A stretch of 64,000 nt of DNA from Alphaproteobacteria bacterium (lineage in GTDB: Bacteria > Pseudomonadota > Alphaproteobacteria > Rs-D84): NCBI GenBank assembly GCA_015062495.1, contig SUUN01000001.1, forward strand, positions 97,069-161,068, read 5' to 3'. Made by a program: the position numbers and the translations under genes. Under the pieces are notes generated by a model. It searched no databases. It was given only the letters and a program-made list of their open reading frames with translations, and was not told where the DNA came from. Position 1 is the stretch's first letter. The number at the start of each line of letters is the position of its first letter. Of the stretch, positions 362-58,418 are shown piece after piece.

Positions 362-438
362 GCGCCCTTAGCTCAGCTGGATAGAGCATCAGATTTCTAA
401 TCTGCAGGTCGAGGGTTCGAATCCCCCAGGGCGTGCCA
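362..438 (+). tRNA. tRNA-Arg, anticodon TCT
   Basis: Cloverleaf readable: acceptor GCGCCCT / AGGGCGT, D-arm GCTC-AGCTGGATA-GAGC, anticodon loop TTTCTAA (U33, anticodon TCT, A37), T-loop TTCGAAT, 3' GCCA. Confidence 0.85.
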
Positions 439-473
439 GAATTTAACCGTCGCGATTGCGGCGGTTTTGTTTT
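435..473. repeat. Left copy of an exact 39-bp direct repeat (overlaps last 4 nt of tRNA-Arg and its terminator hairpin)
   Basis: gccagaatttaaccgtcgcgattgcggcggttttgtttt is identical at 435-473 and 2083-2121. Confidence 0.8.
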
Positions 474-478
474 TTGTT
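444..478 (+). terminator. Rho-independent terminator after tRNA-Arg
   Basis: AACCGTCGC-gatt-GCGGCGGTT hairpin followed by TTTGTTTTTTG. Confidence 0.6.
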
Positions 479-708
479 TGGATTTTTGTCATTTTTTGGT
501 GTAGTATATACTTTGACATGGCGATTGCTGTGTTGGGCGTCGAAACCCGTTTATGCTCAGTGCCTGTGAAGGTAGAAAATATCTCCAACCAATATGGTTG
601 GAGGGCGGTGAATATATTGAATAAGCCCGCTATTTTCTGAGCATTATAGTTTCGAACCTCCAACCACCCGCTTTGTCAGGTGGTTTTTTGTTTAAAAAAG
701 GATAAAAA

Positions 709-927
709 ATGAGTGGAGTAAACGTGAAGCAGTCAATTAATCAAAATCTTTTGACTTTTATTTTTTCGATGTTGCTTATTGTTGTGGGCGAGTATGCTTG
801 TGTGTCCTGTTGCGTCTATTATGCATTTGCCTATTCTGTGTCGTTGGCAGCGGGCGTTTCTACTATCTTGACATTGGCTGCGTATACAAAAGATTATTGT
901 GCGAAGAAAAGTAATAAATGTAAATAG
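709..927 (+). CDS. Small hydrophobic protein (2 predicted TM segments), hypothetical
   Basis: 72-aa ORF with AAGGA RBS 7 nt upstream of ATG; ends 1 nt before next ORF; inside the DR-flanked islet. Confidence 0.35.
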   Translation: MSGVNVKQSINQNLLTFIFSMLLIVVGEYACVSCCVYYAFAYSVSLAAGVSTILTLAAYTKDYCAKKSNKCK

Positions 928-2076
928 GTGACAAAAATGCAAGTATTGATAGTAATATTATGTCTTTTTTTGGCTTATCTGCTTCTTTGCTTTTATGAAT
1001 TTAAGGAGGCATTAGATGACAAAAAAAGGAAACAGAAATTAATGTCAGATTTAGAAATTTTAATAAAAGCAACGAAAAAGTCTGTGCAAAAACTGAATAA
1101 GCACGTTGGTCTTTGGCGTCAAGATTATGTAGATATGATTAATGAGTGTATGGAAAGATACTATAAGGTGTTGGAAACTAAATATTTTCAACTTGTATTT
1201 GTTGATGATTATGGTAGAGCGCAGCTTTCGGATTTTGAGAGGGAGTTAATTAACTTTTCTTATCAGATTGTCTTTGAGGATGAAATTCAGTATAGATATC
1301 AGCAGATTGTGAAGGAGTTTATTGGACACGCTTCATTTAGTGACGTTATTGTTCTTCGGCAATATATGAAACAAAATGGTCTGTCTTGGAAAGAAGTTGA
1401 GCAGCTATGGCCGGCGTGGCGTACAGATTTGCGTTATGTTCTGGAAGCTGGTTTGCTTTTTGCTGCTGAAGTGTTGCGGCAATGGTTTCCACCTATGGAT
1501 AAAGGTATTTTATTGGAAGACGCTGTGCCAGAAAATGATGCTTTTGAAACGTTCTATGATGGGTATTTTAACTTGGAAGGATTTCTTGATGTTAAGGGAG
1601 CAGAAATTATATTAAAGGCAAATGCCAAAGTGCTGTGTTTCTCCATAATCGATAATTTGTTCGATATTACATTTAGAAATGCCGTTTATAAAAATAAGTC
1701 TTTTACAAAGATAGGAAAACAGAGTGCCCAGCAGAAAGAAACGCCGCAACAATATGAGAGGCATATTGCTACAAATTTGAAAAAACTTGGGTTTGAAGCG
1801 CGTACTACCAAGGCGTCAGGTGACCAGGGGGCAGATGTTCTGGCCAGTAAGGACGGTGTGTCATTTGCGATACAATGCAAAATGTATTCTAAACCTGTGG
1901 GCAATAAGGCTGTTCAAGAAGCGAATGCGGGACGTGATTTTTATAAAAAAGATTATGGAGTGGTGATTTCTAATGCGGGGTTCACCAAATCGGCGCGTCA
2001 AGCCGCGCATGCGTGTGGTATTATTTTATTAAATGACAATCAATTAGAGTCTTTATTGAAATACACCAATAGATGA
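928..2076 (+). CDS. Membrane-anchored protein with C-terminal Mrr-cat (PD-(D/E)xK restriction-endonuclease-like) domain
   Basis: N-terminal TM helix (LIVILCLFLAYLLLCFYEF). C-terminal ~110 aa match the Mrr_cat pattern: LKKLGFEA...GDQGADVLA...FAIQCKMY...ISNAGFTKSA...GIILLNDNQLESLL. Confidence 0.7.
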   Translation: MTKMQVLIVILCLFLAYLLLCFYEFKEALDDKKRKQKLMSDLEILIKATKKSVQKLNKHVGLWRQDYVDMINECMERYYKVLETKYFQLVFVDDYGRAQLSDFERELINFSYQIVFEDEIQYRYQQIVKEFIGHASFSDVIVLRQYMKQNGLSWKEVEQLWPAWRTDLRYVLEAGLLFAAEVLRQWFPPMDKGILLEDAVPENDAFETFYDGYFNLEGFLDVKGAEIILKANAKVLCFSIIDNLFDITFRNAVYKNKSFTKIGKQSAQQKETPQQYERHIATNLKKLGFEARTTKASGDQGADVLASKDGVSFAIQCKMYSKPVGNKAVQEANAGRDFYKKDYGVVISNAGFTKSARQAAHACGIILLNDNQLESLLKYTNR

Positions 2077-2082
2077 TAAAAT

Positions 2083-2121
2083 GCCAGAATTTAACCGTCG
2101 CGATTGCGGCGGTTTTGTTTT
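2083..2121. repeat. Right copy of the 39-bp direct repeat
   Basis: Identical to 435-473; sequence diverges immediately outside. Confidence 0.8.
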
Positions 2122-2198: not shown

Positions 2199-2675
2199 AT
2201 GAAAAAATTTTTGACATTTGTTTTAGCAATTGTGATTTCGTTTGTGCCGGGGATTTTTGGCGGATTCTTTTCACCAATGAGTCCGGGTGTAAACGATTGG
2301 TATAATGGATTGGCGCAGTCGGTTTTGACCCCAAATGGGTGGGTGTTTAGTATCGCGTGGCTGATTTTATACACTCTGTTGGGGATAGCCCTGTATTTAA
2401 TTATGCGCAGTGGCAAAACGCGCCAGAACAAGGCGACGGCATATACGCTGTTTATTGTTCAGATGATTTTGAATACGTTGTGGAGTTATCTGTTCTTTGG
2501 CCTGCATATGGTTGGTTGGGCGATGATTTGTGTGGTGGCACTGGTTGGGGTGGCATTCTGGATGGCGATTGCGTTCAAGCCAATCAGCCGGGGGGCATCA
2601 TTTTTGGTGTGGCCGTATATTGCGTGGCTGATATTCGCAGCGTATTTGAACGGCACGATTTTAATTTTGAACTGA
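2199..2675 (+). CDS. tspO: TspO/MBR family tryptophan-rich sensory protein
   Basis: 158 aa, five TM segments, Trp-rich; N-terminal WY..L.KP..P...F...W..LY and C-terminal WP....F..YLN family signatures; GGAGG RBS. Confidence 0.85.
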   Translation: MKKFLTFVLAIVISFVPGIFGGFFSPMSPGVNDWYNGLAQSVLTPNGWVFSIAWLILYTLLGIALYLIMRSGKTRQNKATAYTLFIVQMILNTLWSYLFFGLHMVGWAMICVVALVGVAFWMAIAFKPISRGASFLVWPYIAWLIFAAYLNGTILILN

Positions 2676-2708
2676 TTTTTGTTTAAGCCGGCTTTGCCGG
2701 TTTTTTTG

Positions 2709-2975
2709 TTGCAGTATAAAACTTTTATTGGTACAATGACTGTTGTCAGCATGTGTTTTATGCTGGCGGGGTGTGGAAACCCTTTGTTGGCGTCGGAATA
2801 TTTGTTAATGGCGCAGATTGCGCTGTTTTTTATTGCGGCGGAAGTTACTCCTGACTGTTGGTCAGGAGGGTTGCGATATATATAAATAAGCACACAATTC
2901 CAACAATTGTTTCCAACCTCCTGGCCACCTTAGTTTTATGGTGGTTTTTTGAAATTGTACAAAAGGAGGAAGTCG
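2709..2975 (+). promoter_or_regulatory. Leader copy 0: sigma70 promoter (TTGCAG-N17-TACAAT, 2709-2737) plus a structured 5' leader related to the leaders at 10863 and 21274
   Basis: Shares CGGGGTGTG.AAACCC hairpin, mid-leader terminator (GCGCA-gat-TGCGC + T6), CTCCTGAC-loop-GTCAGGAG hairpin, conserved GGTTGCGATATATATAAATAAGCACACAATTC block, CAACCTCCTG anti-pairing segment and a second terminator (CCACC..GGTGG T6) before the RBS. Confidence 0.6.
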
Positions 2976-3430
2976 TGAAACAAAAACTAATATGTTTGAC
3001 AGTTGTGTTGTTGATGGTGTCTGATGCGGCGGCTGGTGTATATGGATGTGTTGCAGCCAGTGAACCGATACCAGCGCAATCAAGCAGATGTTCGGGAATG
3101 GACTGGAACTTGCTGAGCAGCAATTATCCATATTGGCAATATGGTGATGTTGTTGCTGGGTTTGCCAAGTGTGTTGGTGGTAGTAGTGTGACATGTACGT
3201 GTCGACAAATCTGGCCATATTTTAATGCAATGGGGGAATGGACTGCTAATGCCAGCAGTATAAACAGTCAATGTTCTGCGTCAACAACATCACTATCTGA
3301 TTGTTATACAAATTGTGCGCGTGCGTGCTTGGCGTCAATTGCGGATAATTATATTACCTGGGGTTATAATGATACTGGCAATCGATATGAATTACAAAAT
3401 ATATTGTCTTATTCCGTGTTTTATAAATAG
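2976..3430 (+). CDS. Small Cys-rich secreted protein (signal peptide), hypothetical
   Basis: GTG start 6 nt after AAGGAGG; N-terminal signal peptide MKQKLICLTVVLLMVSDAAAG; 12 Cys in the mature region; preceded by leader copy 0. Confidence 0.55.
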
Positions 3431-3447
3431 TAAATGGAGTTAATATA

Positions 3448-3846
3448 ATGAAAAAGTTGTTCGTTTTTTTTATGTTTTTGATGTCATGTGGAAATGCATT
3501 TTCGGTTGCGTGTTTGCAATATGATATTAGTGGTTGTTCCCAGTATTCGTCATCAAGTTATACAGACAGTACAGGTGTTACCGCAATGTATAAGTGCGGT
3601 GGTGGTGGCAATCGCGTTGATGTCGTTGGCATGTGTGGAACAGAATTGTCAGGTGGTGACATTGTTTACAACACAACAAATCTGAATGATAACAGCAGGT
3701 GTTTTTGTCGTATAACTTACCCTTTCTTGTCTGATTGGGTCGTTGCAGGCGGTGGGTGTTATAATCCATCCGCAGGAACAATAGGATGTGTTAGCGCTTG
3801 TGAAGCGTTGTTAAATTCTGGTACTAACTGGATATCGTATAAATAA
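3448..3846 (+). CDS. Small Cys-rich secreted protein, hypothetical
   Basis: 132 aa, signal peptide MKKLFVFFMFLMSCGNAFS, about 11 Cys; tandem with neighbours (17-nt gaps). Confidence 0.55.
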   Translation: MKKLFVFFMFLMSCGNAFSVACLQYDISGCSQYSSSSYTDSTGVTAMYKCGGGGNRVDVVGMCGTELSGGDIVYNTTNLNDNSRCFCRITYPFLSDWVVAGGGCYNPSAGTIGCVSACEALLNSGTNWISYK

Positions 3847-3856
3847 GGAGATTCTT

Positions 3857-4147
3857 ATGAAAAAAGTATTGCTTTTATGTTTTACTGTCTGTATGTTTGG
3901 CGCAAACGCAGCGGATTTACCAGCTTGCAGAGGGACGTTACAATTATGGCCAAATGTCGGGTATTATGAGTCATCTTGCCCCGCGGGAACGATTGAATTG
4001 GTTGTGGCGTCTTTGCCTTGTGAATATGCAAGCAGTGCTCAGACATGCGGCATGTTCGTTAATGATAATGGCGAAACAGATGTTTATATCGGAGAGGATG
4101 CTTCTGGCGTATTCGAAATATCTGGTTTTTGTGGACTGTCGCAGTAG
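3857..4147 (+). CDS. Small Cys-rich secreted protein, hypothetical
   Basis: 96 aa, AAGGAG RBS, signal peptide MKKVLLLCFTVCMFGANA, 7 Cys. Confidence 0.5.
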   Translation: MKKVLLLCFTVCMFGANAADLPACRGTLQLWPNVGYYESSCPAGTIELVVASLPCEYASSAQTCGMFVNDNGETDVYIGEDASGVFEISGFCGLSQ

Positions 4148-4154
4148 TGTAGCC

Positions 4155-14994: not shown

Positions 14995-15197
14995 GAAAAT
15001 TCAAACCGTCGCATTTGCGGCGGTTTTAATTTTCTGTTTGGAACGCGTGGATTCGAACGACAAAATTCTTTTGTCGGGTTCGAATGTTACCCTCGTCCGT
15101 CGCATAAATGCGCCGCGACTGCGGGGCATTCGTGACGATTTCGCTGTGCTTTGCGTGCAAAATCTACTCATTGTCTCCCCGAGGCATGAGATAAACA

Positions 15198-21273: not shown

Positions 21274-21551
21274 TTGAATTTGTGGCAACTATGGCGTATA
21301 ATTGTTGTGTCGTCGGGTGTTCCGGTGATGGGGTGTCGAAACCCGTTCCTTTGCGTCTGAGAAAAGAGTTTGAATGCGCCGATGCTGGGCGTGTTTTATC
21401 AGATGAAAAATAACAAACTCCTGATGCCAATTGGGTCAGGAGGGTTGCGATATATATAAATAAGCACACAATTCAAAGGATTGTTTCGAACCTCCTGACC
21501 GTCAAATGATTGGCGGTTTTTTGTTTAACAAAAAATCAGGAGATAGAACAA
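21274..21551 (+). promoter_or_regulatory. Leader copy 2: promoter TTGAAT-N17-TATAAT (21274-21302) plus a structured leader homologous to 10863-11142
   Basis: Same architecture as copy 1 with compensatory substitutions: ATGGG..CCCGT, GCGCC..GGCGT+T-run, CTCCTGAT..GTCAGGAG, conserved AT-rich block, CGAACCTCCTGACC, second hairpin plus T6, SD CAGGAGAT. Confidence 0.65.
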
Positions 21552-22229
21552 ATGAAAAAAAATTTACTGTTTGTGGTTGGGGCTGTGTGCTCGGTGGTGG
21601 CGTGTCCAGCAATGGGGGCATACAACTGTTATCAGATAGCGCAATCGTCAGAATATTTATGCGACGGTGCTTTGTCACAGTATCAGATAACGGGGGTGAG
21701 GCCAAGTTTGGATATGTTGGGTGGCGGTATGACGATGCCAGGTTGTGCCAGCAGTGATTATTTTGAATGTTGGGCATATACATCTGGCAGTAATACGGTT
21801 TATGTTCCGTGGTATGACTGTGATAGTTGTATGGCTGGATATACCAGAAAGTCTACAACCGCGCAAATGGGCGGATGTGGAAATGCCACATATTATTATT
21901 GCGAAGAAAATTGTACCGGGTGCAGTAATTGTACGTCTGATACGACGTGGTCCACAACGGGTACGGACGGATATGAAAAAAAGGTCACACGCACGTGCAG
22001 TTGTAACACGTGTATGATCAGCACTTCATATCGTTGCGCCGCCGGATATTATGGCAGTTCAACAAACGGTACATCGGGGTGTACGCGGTGTCCGTCGTCG
22101 GGTGGGGTCTATGGCACAAGTGCCGCAGGCAGTACCGCGATAACATCGTGTTATATTCCGTCTGGAACGTCGATGACAGATAGTGTAGGAACGTATGAAT
22201 ATACGTCAAATTGTTATTATAGCGAATAA
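21552..22229 (+). CDS. Cys-rich secreted protein, paralog B (C-terminal ...CSCNTC...RCP...CY...GTYEYTSNCYYSE)
   Basis: Signal peptide MKKNLLFVVGAVCSVVACPAMG; about 24 Cys; C-terminal module shared with 11143 and 29339. Confidence 0.6.
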   Translation: MKKNLLFVVGAVCSVVACPAMGAYNCYQIAQSSEYLCDGALSQYQITGVRPSLDMLGGGMTMPGCASSDYFECWAYTSGSNTVYVPWYDCDSCMAGYTRKSTTAQMGGCGNATYYYCEENCTGCSNCTSDTTWSTTGTDGYEKKVTRTCSCNTCMISTSYRCAAGYYGSSTNGTSGCTRCPSSGGVYGTSAAGSTAITSCYIPSGTSMTDSVGTYEYTSNCYYSE

Positions 22230-56067: not shown

Positions 56068-56453
56068 GCATTATTAAAAAAATCGAAGCAGCCCAGATTG
56101 AAAAATTAAAGGGCGACAAAAAAATCCCAAACTTCAAGGCCGGGGATACATTAAAGGTTCACGTCAAAATTAAAGATGGTGATAAATTCCGTATCCAGGT
56201 TTTCGAAGGTGTTGTTATCGCACGCGATGGCGGCATGGGGAATAATGCATCCTTTACAGTACGTCGTGAATCATACGGTGTTGGTGTGGAACGTAAATTC
56301 CCACTGTACAGCCCTGCAATCGAAAAGATTGAAAAGGTTCGTATTGGTAAAGTACGTCGTGCAAAGTTATTCTTCCTGCGTGGGTTGTCAGGTAAAAAGG
56401 CGCGTATCGTCGAAGACTTGGCAGCAACAAGTGCAGAAAAGAGTGCAAAATAA
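56064..56453 (+). CDS. rplS: 50S ribosomal protein L19
   Basis: [31 protein letters not shown] family signature; ATGA overlap with trmD. Confidence 0.95.
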
Positions 56454-56455
56454 TA

Positions 56456-56516
56456 AAACCCGCCAATTGGCGGGTTTTTTTAGTGTCTGAAAAATCCCCC
56501 AATTGGGGGATTTTAA
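56456..56516. terminator. Pair of rho-independent terminators between convergent rplS and dnaK
   Basis: AACCCGCCAATTGGCGGGTTTTTTT and AAAATCCCCCAATTGGGGGATTTT. Confidence 0.75.
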
Positions 56517-58418
56517 TTATTTCTTTTCAGAAAAGTCCGCGTCGACGGTGCCGTCGTCGTTTTTCTTTTCTGTGTCGGCGGATGCGCCCTGCTCGGCCTG
56601 TTGGGCTTTGTAGACCGCTTCGCCCAGTTTCATGGCGCGTTCGGTTAACGCTTCGGTTTTTGATTTCAAACTGTCAACCGTTGCGTCAGCCTTGGCCAAT
56701 TCGTCGGCTAATTCTTTTTTCGCATCTTCGATTGCTTTTTTATCATCTTCGCTGATTTTATCACCGTGTTCTTTCAGTGATTTTTCAATGCTAAAGATAG
56801 CGGTTTCGGCGGTATTCTTGGCCTCGGCCAGTTCGCGTTTTGCCTTGTCCGCTTCGGCGTTGGCAGCGGCTTCGTCAACCATGCGTTTGATTTCGTCTTC
56901 GGACAGACCGCCGTCGGATTTGATTGAAATCGCCTGTTCTTTGCCGGTGCCTTTGTCCTTGGCCGATACGTGTACGATGCCGTTTGCGTCGATATCAAAT
57001 GACACTTCGATTTGTGGCATACCACGTGGGGCCGGTGCGATACCTTCTAGATTAAATTGGCCCAGTAATTTGTTGTCCGCCGCCATGTCGCGTTCGCCCT
57101 GGAATACACGGATGGTTACGGCCGACTGGTTGTCTTCGGCGGTGCTGAATACCTGGGATTTCTTGGTTGGGATTGTTGTGTTGCGGTCAATCAGACGTGT
57201 GAACACGCCACCCAATGTTTCAATGCCCAATGATAATGGCGTTACGTCCAGCAACAGAACGTCTTTGACATCGCCCTTTAATACGCCACCCTGGATGGCT
57301 GCGCCCATACCGACAACTTCGTCTGGGTTCACGCCCTTGTGTGGTTCGCGACCAAAGAATTCTTTGACCGTTTCGGCAACCTTGGGCATGCGGGTTTGAC
57401 CACCGACCAAGATAACTTCGTTAATCTGTGATTTTTCCAGACCTGCGTCCTTTAATGCCTTTTTGCAAGGTTCAATTGTGCGTTCAATCAAGTCCGCAAC
57501 CAACGATTCCAATTTCGCACGTGTCAGGGTTGTGTTAAAGTGCTTTGGCCCCGTCGCGTCCGCCGTCAAGAACGGCAGGTTGATGTCTGTGGATGTTTTA
57601 GACGACAATTCGATTTTTGCCTTTTCAGCGGCTTCTTTTAAACGTTGCAATGCCAGTTTGTCGCCCGACAGGTCAATGCCAGTCTGGGATTTAAATTCAG
57701 CAATCAAGTGTTCCAAAATACGCGCGTCAAAGTCTGAGCCACCCAGGGTCGTGTCGCCGTTGGTTGATTTTACTTCGAATACGCCATCGATAATTTCCAA
57801 AATAGATACGTCAAATGTACCACCACCCAGGTCATATACTGCGATGATGCCATCTTTGCCTTTGTCCAGGCCGTATGCCAATGCCGCGGCCGTTGGTTCG
57901 TTAACAATACGCAATACGTTCAGACCCGCAATGCGACCGGCGTCTTTGGTTGCCTGGCGCTGGGAATCGTTAAAGTATGCAGGAACGGTAATAACCGCGT
58001 CGGTGACCGGTTCACCCAGATAGGATTCGGCGTCTTTTTTCAATTTTGCCAAAATCATTGCAGAAATCTGGGATGGGGCATATTTCTTGCCGTCCATTTC
58101 AACCCATGCGTCGCCATTGTCGCCCGCAACGATTTTATATGGAACGCGTGCCGCAATTTCACGGACAGCTGGGCTGTCAAAGCGCAGACCCATTAAACGT
58201 TTGATTTCATAGATTGTGTTTTCGGGGTTGGTGACCGCCTGATTCTTGGCTGTGATGCCGACCAACTGTTCCCCGTTTGATGTCAATGCAACAACGGATG
58301 GGGTTGTGCGCTGACCTTCGGAATTTTCAATGATTTTTGGGTCAGAACCGTCCATGAACGCCATGGCCGAATTTGTTGTACCCAAGTCAATACCAATTAC
58401 TTTTCCCATGTTTTTCAC
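56517..58418 (-). CDS. dnaK: Molecular chaperone DnaK (Hsp70)
   Basis: [17 protein letters not shown], substrate-binding and lid domains, EEVD-less C-terminus typical of bacteria; 633 aa. Confidence 0.97.

What the first reader, a model, noticed from the sequence alone, without database searches (positions are those of the whole stretch)
435..2121. 1.6-kb islet inserted at the 3' end of tRNA-Arg, bounded by exact 39-bp direct repeats, carrying a membrane-anchored Mrr-cat nuclease
The 39-mer gccagaatttaaccgtcgcgattgcggcggttttgtttt occurs at 435-473 (overlapping the CCA end of tRNA-Arg) and again at 2083-2121. The intervening DNA encodes a 72-aa two-TM peptide and a 382-aa protein with an N-terminal TM helix and a C-terminal Mrr-cat PD-(D/E)xK nuclease domain (GDQGADVL...AIQCK). 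This looks like att duplication from site-specific integration at a tRNA, with the integrase lost. A TM-anchored Mrr-type nuclease resembles Abi / anti-phage effector architectures more than a canonical Type IV restriction enzyme.
Basis: partly seen in the sequence, partly recalled or inferred. Interest (0 to 1): 0.6.

Follow-up and report, generated by a model that had tools for sequence, protein, structure and literature searches.

The report
Small mobile nuclease islet beside tRNA-Arg
A 1.6-kb two-gene cassette, encoding a small membrane protein and a membrane-anchored Mrr-type nuclease, is inserted just after a tRNA-Arg gene in a gut alphaproteobacterium; close relatives have the site empty, so this is a real but fairly ordinary mobile islet, probably for defence.

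Summary
An exact 40-nt direct repeat lies at 434-473 and 2082-2121. It consists of the last 5 nt of tRNA-Arg(TCT) plus the tRNA's terminator hairpin, and it brackets 1,608 bp.

Four independent contigs of close relatives (about 95-96% identical flanks; the contigs carry only metagenome sample names, no taxon label) have tRNA-Arg, one repeat copy, then tspO. They differ from the predicted empty junction at 2-4 of 189 positions.

A more distant lineage (flanks 7-11% divergent) carries the same islet at the same site, only 1-2% divergent. Its nuclease gene has a swapped central domain. The islet has therefore moved laterally.

The interior holds only one module: a promoter and structured leader, a 72-aa two-TM protein, and a 379-aa protein with a TM helix, a coiled coil, a fast-evolving domain and a Mrr_cat nuclease with intact catalytic residues. 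No integrase remnant is present.

The same module rides in integrase-bearing tRNA islands in related genomes. Most of 70 relatives sampled from over 500 species genomes carry an N-terminal TM segment. The closest validated analogue is the Vibrio cholerae anti-phage protein Epona.

The defence function and the insertion mechanism (integrase in trans versus RecA) are inferred, not shown. This is a new member of a known kind, of moderate interest.

The parts
362..438 (+). tRNA-Arg(TCT), the target gene. It stays intact because the insertion lies at its 3' tip.
   Evidence: ARAGORN; Rfam tRNA model, 62.4 bits.
434..473 (+). Left direct repeat (attL-like): TGCCA of the tRNA plus the tRNA terminator hairpin and T-run.
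   Evidence: Exact 40-nt repeat; terminator-like; -16.9 kcal/mol, z = -4.2. Present as a single copy at the empty sites.
474..708 (+). Promoter-like region and a roughly 190-nt structured 5' leader. The RNA element lies at about 575-695. It has a P0 hairpin (583-603), an alternative long-range stem (596-604 with 657-665) and an intrinsic terminator (664-690) just before the ribosome-binding site.
   Evidence: The leader is conserved upstream of Mrr homologues in L018, L011/12 and L009/10/20, and at two further places in the window (nhmmer). Sub-threshold full-length Rfam sRNA-Xcc1 matches score 32.9 bits against a threshold of 53. Alternative folds and covariation are shown.
709..927 (+). 72-aa Cys-rich protein with two predicted TM helices and a Lys-rich C-terminus. 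It is the first gene of the operon.
   Evidence: ORF with an AAGGA Shine-Dalgarno. It is 98.6% identical in L007. No hit in Pfam, NCBIfam, PHROGs or PADLOC. It was found only inside this islet.
937..2076 (+). 379-aa membrane-anchored Mrr_cat nuclease. It has an N-terminal TM helix, a long coiled-coil helix, a beta-hairpin carrying the conserved K-Y-x-Q-L-V-x-x-D-D-Y-G motif, a variable helical domain, and a C-terminal PD-(D/E)xK domain (residues 270-379).
   Evidence: Pfam Mrr_cat, 4e-23. AlphaFold2 model with pLDDT 86. Foldseek PDB hits to AF1548, MspJI, AspBHI, Hjc and Can2/Cdn1 cover the nuclease domain only. E274, D296, D300, Q313 and K315 are invariant in 37 homologues.
2082..2121 (+). 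Right direct repeat (attR-like). It also serves as the terminator of the nuclease operon.
2199..2675 (+). tspO, the right-hand chromosomal flank. It is not part of the islet.
   Evidence: Pfam TspO_MBR, 6e-40. It lies directly after the single repeat copy in the empty-site contigs.

Best explanation
The segment from 434 to 2121 is a small cassette with no integrase of its own. It sits at a recombination hot spot formed by the 3' tip of tRNA-Arg(TCT) and the tRNA's terminator. It entered by Campbell-type recombination, that is, a single crossover with a circular copy, between a 40-bp sequence on the incoming DNA and the identical chromosomal sequence. This duplicated the 40-mer, left the tRNA intact, and gave the new operon the tRNA's terminator. 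The crossover was most likely catalysed in trans by a tyrosine integrase of one of the tRNA-Arg-targeting elements that visit this locus. RecA acting on the 40-bp identity is the alternative.

The cargo is one self-contained expression module. It has a promoter, an attenuator-type leader RNA whose default fold ends in a terminator, a 72-aa two-TM protein, and a nuclease tethered to the inner membrane with its Mrr_cat domain facing the cytoplasm. I infer that this is a phage or plasmid defence module. The leader keeps a potentially toxic nuclease nearly silent. The fast-evolving central domain senses or positions. The Mrr_cat domain cuts DNA at the membrane, either incoming foreign DNA or, in an abortive-infection mode, any DNA.

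Shown here: the repeat, the empty site, lateral transfer, the module structure, the nuclease fold and its catalytic residues. Inferred: the recombinase, the membrane topology, regulation by the leader, and the defence role.
For: Insertion:
- The flanking repeat is an exact 40 nt.
- Four independent empty-site contigs match the predicted junction, with 2-4 mismatches in 189 nt and no indels.
- The islet has lower G+C, 37.3% against 45.4%.

Lateral movement:
- Against L007, the islet differs at 5/467 and 5/317 positions and the repeats at 0.
- The adjoining tRNA fragment differs at 6/42, tspO by 6.8%, and Dus to UvrA by 10.9%.
- Genomes only about 4-5% divergent lack the islet.

Hot spot:
- A 46-bp repeat (the tRNA's last 17 nt plus the terminator) flanks a 92-bp scar in L097/L098.
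- A 148-aa cassette is bounded by CGGCGGTTTTGTTTT in L007, L097 and L098, and at its right end in L099/L100, whose contigs start inside the left repeat.
- L007 has a displaced tRNA 3' half.

The module as a unit:
- The same leader precedes Mrr homologues in L018, L011/12 and L009/10/20.
- Homology starts within about 5 nt of the islet's left edge.

Mobile-element cargo:
- Homologues sit in 5-9-kb islands bounded by tRNA 3'-end repeats, with tyrosine integrases, in L018, L026, L029 and L039.
- Others sit in large-serine-recombinase islands, L006 and L011.
- A tRNA lies within 4 kb in 25 of 76 loci.

Nuclease:
- Mrr_cat matches at 82 bits.
- The catalytic residues are invariant.
- The model has pLDDT 86, and structural hits fall on Mrr-like, MspJI and Hjc folds.

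Membrane tether:
- 52 of 70 relatives have hydrophobic N-terminal segments.
- There are no positive residues before the TM helix and a KKRKQK stretch after it (sequence; positive-inside rule, inference).

Defence analogy:
- Epona, a Mrr_cat fused to a 2-TM domain, protects E. coli from phages (Darracq et al., bioRxiv 10.1101/2024.07.02.601686).
- PADLOC matches the nuclease domain to ZorD, PDC-S02 and mREase_IV.
- The central domain is replaced between strains while the ends stay about 98% identical.
Against: - No recombinase is identified. There is none in the islet. tblastn with the seven integrases and recombinases found in the related islands gave nothing significant in the 64-kb window; no general recombinase profile search was run.
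- A repeat that takes in only 5 nt of the tRNA is unusual for tRNA-targeting integrases, which normally duplicate 15-60 nt of the gene. L018 shows the usual case, with 45 nt.
- A 40-bp identity is enough for low-frequency RecA recombination, so site-specific catalysis is not required.
- No circular or tandem form was seen. The short contigs L014-L016 are explained by assembly-graph breaks at the repeat.
- No defence phenotype or nuclease activity is known for any member of this DDYG-motif subfamily.
- The PADLOC hits are to the domain only.
- Homology to Epona outside Mrr_cat could not be tested.
- The 72-aa partner is not conserved with homologues elsewhere.
- The N-terminal domain has no recognisable relatives outside the family.
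Confidence: 0.6

Rival explanations
1. The islet is the decayed remnant of a larger integrase-bearing tRNA-Arg island. Internal deletions removed the integrase and other genes and left only the selected nuclease module between attL and attR.
For: Related genomes carry the same module inside complete islands with tyrosine integrases and tRNA-derived repeats. In L018 the Mrr gene is the last gene before attR. Scars at the same locus in L097 and L007 show that elements come and go.
Against: The interior begins 4 nt after repeat 1, at the start of the conserved leader. It ends 5 nt after the stop codon. No non-module DNA is left. Two independent, near-perfect deletions would be needed. The same minimal unit is present in two lineages with 7-11% divergent flanks, so it moved in its minimal form.
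Confidence: 0.2
2. No recombinase is involved. The unit spreads by homologous recombination: RecA-dependent Campbell insertion of a circle, or exchange after DNA uptake, using the 40-bp terminator identity. The empty alleles arise by RecA deletion between the repeats.
For: The repeats are exactly identical and 40 bp long, which is above the minimal length for RecA. The neighbouring 148-aa cassette is bounded only by a 15-nt terminator core. Similar terminators follow other tRNAs. There is no integrase in the islet, and no relative of the seven island recombinases tested lies in the window.
Against: Similarity with L007 drops sharply at the left repeat boundary, with 6 mismatches in the 42 nt to its left and none in the repeat. 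That pattern is more typical of site-specific exchange. The locus carries classic integrase signatures: a displaced tRNA 3' half and a 46-bp tRNA-end repeat. The data cannot exclude this rival.
Confidence: 0.25
3. The 379-aa protein is a conventional Type IV (modification-dependent) restriction endonuclease of the Mrr type.
For: It matches Mrr_cat. Structural neighbours include MspJI and AspBHI. PADLOC mREase_IV matches at 4.8e-9. Public annotation of relatives reads 'restriction endonuclease'.
Against: All matches cover the nuclease domain only. No Mrr_N, SRA or other modified-base reader was found by Pfam, NCBIfam or fold search. The protein has an N-terminal membrane anchor and coiled coil instead.
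Confidence: 0.1
4. The two genes form an addiction or toxin module rather than a defence system. The small membrane protein and the nuclease would act as toxin and partner, stabilising the islet or killing cells under stress, with the leader as the control element.
For: sRNA-Xcc1-type RNAs sit upstream of the toxin gene symE in integron cassettes. The leader's default fold is a terminator. A small two-TM Cys-rich protein resembles holin-like or type I toxins. The module is always on mobile DNA.
Against: The 72-aa gene is absent from most homologous modules (L018 has none; L009 and L011 have unrelated soluble ORFs). The nuclease is therefore tolerated alone. The same leader also precedes secreted Cys-rich proteins that are not obviously toxic. 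The addiction and defence roles are not mutually exclusive.
Confidence: 0.15
5. The repeat is a chance or replication-slippage duplication of a common terminator and has nothing to do with mobility.
For: The repeat is a terminator, and a similar hairpin follows tRNA-Pro.
Against: No match is expected by chance. The exact 40-mer is confined to this locus. Empty sites exist. The islet is 5-10 times less divergent than its flanks between lineages.
Confidence: 0.02

Closest known systems
Cis-mobilisable elements (CIMEs) and other integrase-less, att-flanked islets at tRNA genes. CIMEs were described in Streptococcus thermophilus as att-bounded elements lacking recombination genes (from my own knowledge, not checked in the library).
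   Same: The unit is bounded by direct repeats that match the single copy at the empty site. It has no integrase of its own. It sits where integrase-bearing elements of the same genus integrate. It shows presence/absence polymorphism and a phylogeny that disagrees with its flanks.
   Different: At 1.6 kb it is much smaller, and it consists of one expression module only. The repeat takes in just 5 nt of the tRNA plus its terminator. No cognate integrase has been identified, and mobilisation in trans has not been demonstrated.
Epona, a single-protein anti-phage system from a Vibrio cholerae chromosomal integron cassette (Darracq et al. 2024, bioRxiv 10.1101/2024.07.02.601686).
   Same: A Mrr_cat nuclease is joined to an N-terminal transmembrane region. 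It is compact, cassette-sized cargo of a recombination platform.
   Different: Epona has a 2-TM holin-like domain fused directly to the nuclease. Here there is one TM helix plus about 240 aa of coiled coil and variable domain, with a separate 2-TM protein upstream. Epona sits in an integron attC cassette; this one sits at a tRNA terminator. Sequence relatedness outside Mrr_cat could not be tested, and no phenotype is known here.
Mrr / MspJI-type Type IV restriction endonucleases.
   Same: They share the PD-(D/E)xK Mrr_cat catalytic domain, and all catalytic residues are conserved here.
   Different: No modified-DNA-binding N-terminal domain is present. The protein is membrane-anchored and is carried on a mobile module behind an attenuator leader.
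PADLOC candidate PDC-S02 and the ZorD nuclease module.
   Same: There are local profile matches to their Mrr-like nuclease domains, at 3.7e-12 and 2.6e-18. The PDC-S02 models are of similar overall length (334-390 positions), with the nuclease at the C-terminus.
   Different: The N-terminal 260 residues do not match any of these profiles. No Zorya partner genes (ZorA, ZorB or ZorC) lie nearby.
sRNA-Xcc1 (Rfam RF02221), an RNA found upstream of symE and other genes in integron cassettes, phages and islands.
   Same: The islet leader matches the whole model (positions 1-87), with the same outer stem, two inner hairpins and ACCC-plus-U-run tail. It too sits at the 5' end of mobile cargo genes.
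   Different: The scores (30-33 bits) are well below the gathering threshold of 53. Here an upstream hairpin and an overlapping terminator suggest a cis-acting attenuator rather than a trans-acting sRNA.

Membership tests
att-flanked integrase-less islet (CIME-like) at a tRNA gene | Direct repeats at both ends that are derived from the target site | tested here: met
   An exact 40-nt repeat at 434-473 and 2082-2121 overlaps the tRNA 3' end.
att-flanked integrase-less islet (CIME-like) at a tRNA gene | Related genomes with an empty site that carries one repeat copy | tested here: met
   L008, L101, L102 and L104 match the predicted junction with 2-4 mismatches in 189 nt.
att-flanked integrase-less islet (CIME-like) at a tRNA gene | No recombinase gene inside the element | tested here: met
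   The interior holds only the leader, the 72-aa ORF and the Mrr ORF. tblastn with seven integrases and recombinases from the related islands gave only chance-level hits in the window.
att-flanked integrase-less islet (CIME-like) at a tRNA gene | Excision and integration by a cognate integrase supplied in trans | not testable with these tools
   This needs read-level junction searches or an experiment. Integrase-bearing tRNA islands with the same cargo exist in the genus.
Mrr_cat PD-(D/E)xK nuclease (PF04471) | Profile match above the curated threshold | tested here: met
   82.2 bits against a cut-off of 21, covering profile positions 3-115 of 115.
Mrr_cat PD-(D/E)xK nuclease (PF04471) | Catalytic residues E...D...(E/Q)xK conserved and the alpha/beta nuclease fold present | tested here: met
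   E274, D296, D300, Q313 and K315 are invariant in 37 sequences. The model has pLDDT above 90 over most of the domain and matches 1y88, MspJI and Hjc.
Mrr_cat PD-(D/E)xK nuclease (PF04471) | Nuclease activity | not testable with these tools
   A biochemical assay is required.
Type IV modification-dependent restriction enzyme (Mrr/MspJI type) | N-terminal domain that reads modified DNA (Mrr_N winged helix, SRA or similar) | tested here: not met
   Pfam and NCBIfam find no such domain, even at E up to 5. Fold-search hits align to the nuclease only. The N-terminus is a TM helix, a coiled coil and an orphan domain.
Epona (TM-Mrr_cat anti-phage protein) | Mrr_cat fused to an N-terminal transmembrane region | tested here: met
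   One hydrophobic helix spans residues 2-21, followed by Mrr_cat at 270-379. In the subfamily, 52 of 70 relatives have TM segments. The number of TM helices and the linker differ from the published description.
Epona (TM-Mrr_cat anti-phage protein) | Sequence homology to Epona beyond the nuclease domain | not tested
   The Epona sequence or locus tag is not in the held text or supplement. A search seeded with a Vibrio 2-TM relative returned no hit named as V. cholerae.
Epona (TM-Mrr_cat anti-phage protein) | Protection against phage | not testable with these tools
   An experiment is required.
PADLOC PDC-S02 / ZorD / mREase_IV | Full-length match to the system's profile, plus partner genes where the system has them | tested here: not met
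   The matches cover only query residues 266-379 (numbering of the 382-aa translation submitted), which is the nuclease end of each profile. No Zorya genes are nearby.
sRNA-Xcc1 (RF02221) | Covariance-model score at or above the gathering threshold of 53 bits | tested here: not met
   32.9 bits (596-673), 30.2 bits (2860-2934), 33.2 bits (L011) and 32.9 bits (L018), all over model positions 1-87.

The most novel reading that the evidence does not exclude
The mobile unit may be a new kind of minimal gene cassette. It would consist of a promoter, an sRNA-Xcc1-like attenuator, an effector gene and a terminator hairpin that doubles as the attachment site. Such cassettes would be slotted next to tRNA genes, and swapped between islands, without a dedicated integrase. 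That would be a tRNA-terminator analogue of integron cassettes. The conserved leader would be a shared switch that keeps toxic or costly cargo silent until an unknown signal opens the anti-terminator. The cargo seen so far is Mrr nucleases and Cys-rich secreted proteins.
Probability: 0.12. Interest if true: 0.7.

Novelty: new member of a known kind. Interest (0 to 1): 0.4.

Why it matters
This is a clean natural example of a defence-type gene moving as a minimal unit. It has exact boundaries, a verified empty site, transfer across lineages, and a swapped central domain.

It defines a large, uncharacterised subfamily of membrane-tethered Mrr nucleases. Over 500 loci were found in species-representative genomes, and over 1,000 protein clusters. 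These proteins share a conserved DDYG-motif hairpin and are currently annotated only as 'restriction endonuclease'.

It also links that module to a conserved attenuator-like leader RNA resembling sRNA-Xcc1, an RNA repeatedly seen on mobile cargo but without a known mechanism.

If the defence role holds, the family would add a testable single-gene system from gut Alphaproteobacteria, and the leader would be a candidate regulatory switch for toxic cargo. If it does not hold, this remains an ordinary small genomic islet.

Tried and rejected
- Rfam at gathering thresholds found only the three tRNAs.
- The att core was absent from IMG/VR viral contigs.
- The nuclease-family profile found no solved relative by sequence in the PDB.
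- NCBIfam and PHROGs gave nothing beyond the nuclease domain.
- Pfam at E up to 5 found no domain in the N-terminal 268 residues.
- A search of 1.84 billion representative proteins with the N-terminal domain returned only six family members, so no domain-partner inference was possible.
- The plasmid and phage collections gave nuclease-domain hits only.
- The BFVD fold search returned phage 'restriction endonucleases', again mostly through the nuclease domain.
- The Epona sequence could not be located in the preprint text or supplement, nor through a Vibrio-seeded homologue search.
- The short contigs L014-L016 were considered as possible circular forms. I rejected this because their lengths (for example 1,668 = 1,608 + 2 x 30) are what a k = 31 assembly graph yields at a 40-bp repeat.
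- Transposition was considered and rejected, because a 40-bp duplication is far longer than any known target-site duplication.
- Integron attC recombination was considered and rejected, because only a core of about 7 nt would be shared. Both of these last two points rest on my own knowledge.
- I did not build a covariance model for the leader. With about five distinct sequences, the statistics would have been weak.
Full report
**1. The observation**

None of 100 dinucleotide-preserving shuffles gave a match. The repeat finder extends it to 40 nt, at 434-473 and 2082-2121.

ARAGORN places tRNA-Arg(TCT) at 362-438. The repeat is therefore the last five bases of the tRNA (TGCCA) plus 35 nt of downstream sequence. 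That downstream part is a terminator-like hairpin followed by a T-run. It folds at -16.9 kcal/mol with z = -4.2.

Between the repeats lie 1,608 bp with 37.3% G+C. The window as a whole has 45.4%, and the immediate flanks have 47-51%.

The interior contains:
- a 235-bp non-coding stretch;
- a 72-aa ORF at 709-927;
- a nuclease ORF.

The nuclease ORF most likely starts at ATG 937 behind an AGGTGA Shine-Dalgarno. That gives 379 aa, as in public gene calls, rather than 382 aa from GTG 928.

Pfam Mrr_cat matches residues 270-377 of the 382-aa translation (about 267-374 in 379-aa numbering), with 82 bits against a threshold of 21.

**2. Source organism**

The nuclease protein is identical to a protein that NCBI names as from an Alphaproteobacteria MAG. 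The closest species-representative genome is a Candidatus Enterousia sp. MAG. This is an uncultured lineage; related contigs come from rumen and other gut samples.

**3. The empty site exists**

I scanned the metagenome collection for the tRNA's T-loop, a gap of 20-50 nt, and the sequence that follows repeat 2. This returned one contig, L008. In it, tRNA-Arg is followed by a single copy of the repeat and then directly by the tspO flank.

Looking up close TspO variants gave three more such contigs:
- L101 and L102;
- L104, whose TspO is 99% identical to the window's.

The junction predicted by deleting one repeat plus the interior from the window is 189 nt long. It matches these four contigs with 2-4 mismatches and no indels. 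For L008 and L101, which were compared in full, the flanks are about 95-96% identical to the window.

All 22 contigs that encode the window's exact TspO carry the islet.

**4. The islet has moved between lineages**

A second lineage, L007 (= L017, GCA_045546195.1), has flanks that are much more divergent from the window. It differs by 6.8% over tspO and by 10.9% from Dus to UvrA. Yet it carries the same islet at the same place, between the same two exact 40-mers.

The mismatch map is sharp:

| Region (window coordinates) | Mismatches |
|---|---|
| 42 nt of tRNA left of the repeat | 6 |
| Either repeat | 0 |
| 474-940 | 5 of 467 |
| 1765-2081 | 5 of 317 |

Sister contigs of L007's clade (L097-L100, flanks about 89% identical to the window) lack the islet.

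So in each of two clades the islet is present in some genomes and absent from others. It is five to ten times less diverged between the clades than the chromosome around it. That is lateral transfer into one specific site, not vertical inheritance with loss.

**5. The site is a hot spot**

The tRNA-Arg to tspO interval has at least five states.

| State | Where | Arrangement |
|---|---|---|
| A | window | islet between two repeats |
| B | L007 | islet, then a 148-aa Cys-rich cassette bounded on both sides by the 15-nt terminator core CGGCGGTTTTGTTTT |
| C | L008, L101, L102, L104 | empty |
| D | L097-L100 | 46-bp repeat (tRNA's last 17 nt plus terminator) flanking a 92-bp scar (seen in L097/L098; L099/L100 start downstream of it), then the 148-aa cassette |
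| E | L103, a more distant species | decayed remnant of that cassette |

These states rest.

In L007 the resident tRNA-Arg survives only as a 3' half. An intact but different tRNA-Arg lies 116 bp upstream. That is the signature of another element integrated in the anticodon-loop-to-3' region.

Integrase-type events are therefore frequent here. The 46-bp repeat of state D overlaps the 40-mer of the islet.

**6. What is inside: one module and nothing else**

nhmmer with the non-coding stretch 474-708 finds the same sequence upstream of Mrr homologues:
- in L018, about 96% identical;
- in L011/L012;
- in L009/L010/L020.

In L018, homology begins within about 5 nt of the islet's left edge. It ends near the nuclease stop codon.

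The islet interior is thus exactly the recurrent module, from the leader to the stop codon. It has 4 nt to spare on the left and 5 nt on the right.

tblastn with seven integrases and recombinases taken from the related islands finds nothing significant in the 64-kb window.

This is why I do not accept 'integrase lost' as stated. A decayed island should leave some non-module DNA behind. In addition, the minimal unit is what was transferred between the clades.

**7. The nuclease**

An alignment of 37 homologues shows three features.

- **N-terminal hydrophobic helix.** It is optional across the family. It has no positive charge before it and a Lys/Arg cluster after it. By the positive-inside rule, this puts the bulk of the protein in the cytoplasm. 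That is an inference.
- **N-proximal motif.** L-x-x-K-Y-x-Q-L-V-Y-x-D-D-Y-G...D-F-x-x-E-L-x-x-F is conserved.
- **C-terminal domain.** It is very strongly conserved, with E274, D296, D300, Q313 and K315 invariant. These form the E...D...QxK constellation of Mrr-type PD-(D/E)xK enzymes. The domain therefore looks active. The weaker NA-iREase1 ('inactive') match is secondary.

AlphaFold2 with this alignment gives pLDDT 86. The model shows:
- one continuous helix over residues 2-86 (TM plus coiled coil);
- a beta-hairpin at the DDYG motif;
- a helical domain;
- the nuclease domain.

Foldseek against the PDB hits only the nuclease. The matches are AF1548 (1y88), MspJI, AspBHI, archaeal Hjc and Can2/Cdn1.

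The N-terminal 240 residues have no Pfam or NCBIfam match. A search of 1.84 billion representative proteins found only six relatives, all in this family.

Between the window and L007, the TM helix and the nuclease domain are about 95-98% identical. The central 714 bp has no nucleotide similarity. That is a clean domain swap.

**8. The family and its contexts**

A scan of one genome per species found at least 549 loci encoding relatives of the nuclease domain. A Vibrio-seeded search found over 1,000 protein clusters, and where a source gives a name it is almost always 'restriction endonuclease' or similar.

By a simple hydropathy test, 52 of 70 relatives have one or two hydrophobic segments N-terminal to the nuclease. 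Many carry the DDYG motif.

Contexts are typically mobile.

| Locus | Context |
|---|---|
| L018 | 5.3-kb island at tRNA-Thr, 45-bp tRNA-end repeats, tyrosine integrase |
| L026 | 8.8-kb island at tRNA-Asn, 59-bp repeats, integrase plus resolvase |
| L029, L039 | integrase-bearing islands at tRNA-Met and tRNA-Thr |
| L006, L011 | large-serine-recombinase islands |
| L022, L032 | single Mrr gene just downstream of tRNA-Arg(ACG), with a duplicated tRNA 3' end |

These rest. Overall, 25 of 76 loci have a tRNA within 4 kb.

The partner gene varies. The 72-aa two-TM protein is found only in this islet. Other modules have unrelated small ORFs or none.

**9. The leader RNA (a side finding)**

The window holds three copies of a roughly 120-nt element:
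- 575-695, in the islet;
- 2842-2956, which precedes a block of Cys-rich secreted proteins (2975-4147);
- 21415-21527, which precedes a single Cys-rich secreted protein (about 21552-22229).

These rest.

Each copy has three mutually exclusive pairings: a 5' hairpin (P0), a long-range stem that uses P0's 3' arm, and an intrinsic terminator that overlaps the long-range stem's 3' strand.

The minimum-energy fold is P0 plus terminator in six of the seven sequences; in the 21415-21527 copy the long-range stem already forms in the minimum-energy fold. Blocking P0's 5' arm gives the long-range stem and a weakened terminator in all seven.

The three strands covary between copy types. They read CUCCAACC / GGUUGGAG / CCUCCAACC in one type, and CUCCUGA / UCAGGAG / CCUCCUGAC or CCUCCUGGC in the other.

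Rfam's sRNA-Xcc1 model matches four copies end to end, but at only 30-33 bits against a threshold of 53.

The literature places sRNA-Xcc1 upstream of symE and other genes in integron cassettes, in APSE phages and in Xylella islands.

I read the element as an attenuator-type leader whose default state is OFF. The trigger is unknown.

**10. Mechanism, with what is shown and what is inferred**

Shown:
- a precise 1,648-bp insertion with a 40-bp duplication of the target;
- an intact tRNA;
- lateral spread;
- cargo consisting of a single module;
- an Mrr-fold nuclease with its catalytic residues intact.

Inferred:
- Entry was by a single crossover between a circular copy carrying one 40-mer and the chromosomal 40-mer.
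- The crossover was catalysed either by a tyrosine integrase of a co-resident tRNA-Arg element acting in trans, or by RecA. The data cannot separate these. The sharp similarity boundary and the integrase scars at the locus favour the former. The short overlap with the tRNA and the 15-nt boundaries of the neighbouring cassette favour the latter.
- The nuclease is tethered to the inner membrane with its catalytic domain in the cytoplasm.
- It acts in defence against phage or plasmid DNA.

The defence inference rests on four points. The family lives on mobile islands and at hot spots. The central domain diversifies while the nuclease is frozen. No modified-DNA reader is present. Epona, a Mrr_cat protein fused to a 2-TM domain, protects E. 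coli against phages.

**11. Comparison with known systems**

The element works like a cis-mobilisable, integrase-less islet. The protein is a bona fide Mrr_cat nuclease. It fails the test for a Type IV enzyme, because it has no modified-DNA reader. It matches PADLOC systems through the nuclease domain only. It resembles Epona in architecture, but homology outside the nuclease could not be tested.

**12. Verdict**

It is a new member of known kinds: a small tRNA-site islet and a TM-tethered Mrr nuclease.

The points of some interest are:
- the minimal, module-only composition;
- the transfer across clades together with the domain swap;
- the size of the uncharacterised DDYG subfamily;
- the sRNA-Xcc1-like attenuator that travels with the module.

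Interest is 0.4.

Noticed in passing
window 575-695, 2842-2956 and 21415-21527; also L018 5112-5322, L011 4307-4530, L010 4279-4492 and L028 9931-10082 (minus strand): A repeated leader RNA of about 120 nt has three mutually exclusive pairings: a 5' hairpin, a long-range stem and a terminator. The strands covary between copy types. It gives full-length but sub-threshold matches to Rfam sRNA-Xcc1 (30-33 bits against 53). It precedes Mrr modules and Cys-rich secreted proteins.
   Followed up: partly
window 2677-4154: A 1.48-kb block follows tspO. It holds a leader copy and three Cys-rich, signal-peptide-bearing ORFs (2975-3430, 3448-3846 and 3857-4147) with no family match. The block is absent from L007, L008, L101/L102 and L104, where a 23-bp terminator sits instead. 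It is a second indel, next to the islet.
   Followed up: partly
window 21552-22229: Another Cys-rich secreted protein of about 225 aa lies behind the third leader copy. No function is known.
   Followed up: no
L007 4128-4655; L097 5397-5922: A cassette of about 530 bp encodes a 148-aa Cys-rich protein. It lies between the repeat and tspO and is bounded by the 15-nt terminator core CGGCGGTTTTGTTTT on both sides. A decayed remnant sits at the same place in the more distant L103.
   Followed up: partly
L007 2278-2528: An intact but different tRNA-Arg(TCT) is followed, 116 bp later, by the displaced 3' half of the resident tRNA-Arg. The T-stem of that fragment differs from the window's by compensatory changes. 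The upstream DNA, which has three ORFs with no family match and then the contig end, is probably another integrated element.
   Followed up: partly
L097 5208-5391: A 46-bp direct repeat (the last 17 nt of tRNA-Arg plus its terminator) flanks a 92-bp scar that contains a T-arm-like GGTTCGAGCC. The first copy has a variant T-run (TTTAATTTT).
   Followed up: no
L032 5236-6378; L022 5027-5281: In two other alphaproteobacterial MAGs, a single Mrr-family gene lies just downstream of tRNA-Arg(ACG). In L032 a 53-bp duplicate of the tRNA 3' end plus terminator precedes it. In L022 a 20-nt duplicate of the tRNA 3' end precedes it. The arrangement is like the window's, but it arose independently.
   Followed up: partly
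window 1039-1752 versus L007 3129-3758: The central part of the nuclease gene has no nucleotide similarity between the two islets, while both ends are about 98% identical. In L007 this part encodes a highly charged coiled coil (EKRKQQERERIERAEAEKRR...).
   Followed up: partly
window 15003-15040: The tRNA-Pro terminator (AACCGTCGCATTTGCGGCGGTTTTAATTTT) closely resembles the tRNA-Arg terminator. It is not identical and has no associated duplication.
   Followed up: yes
window 56365-56520: Several sub-threshold Rfam hits cluster on one hairpin-rich spot. They include the Leu and Trp leaders and several sRNAs, at 28-38 bits. This may be an attenuator or a bidirectional terminator.
   Followed up: no
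L010 6238-6290 and 6645-6687: Just after the Mrr module there is a 3' fragment of a tRNA on the minus strand. About 350 bp further on, the contig ends inside an intact tRNA of the same type on the plus strand. Many contigs break here. This is another tRNA-linked rearrangement next to the module.
   Followed up: no
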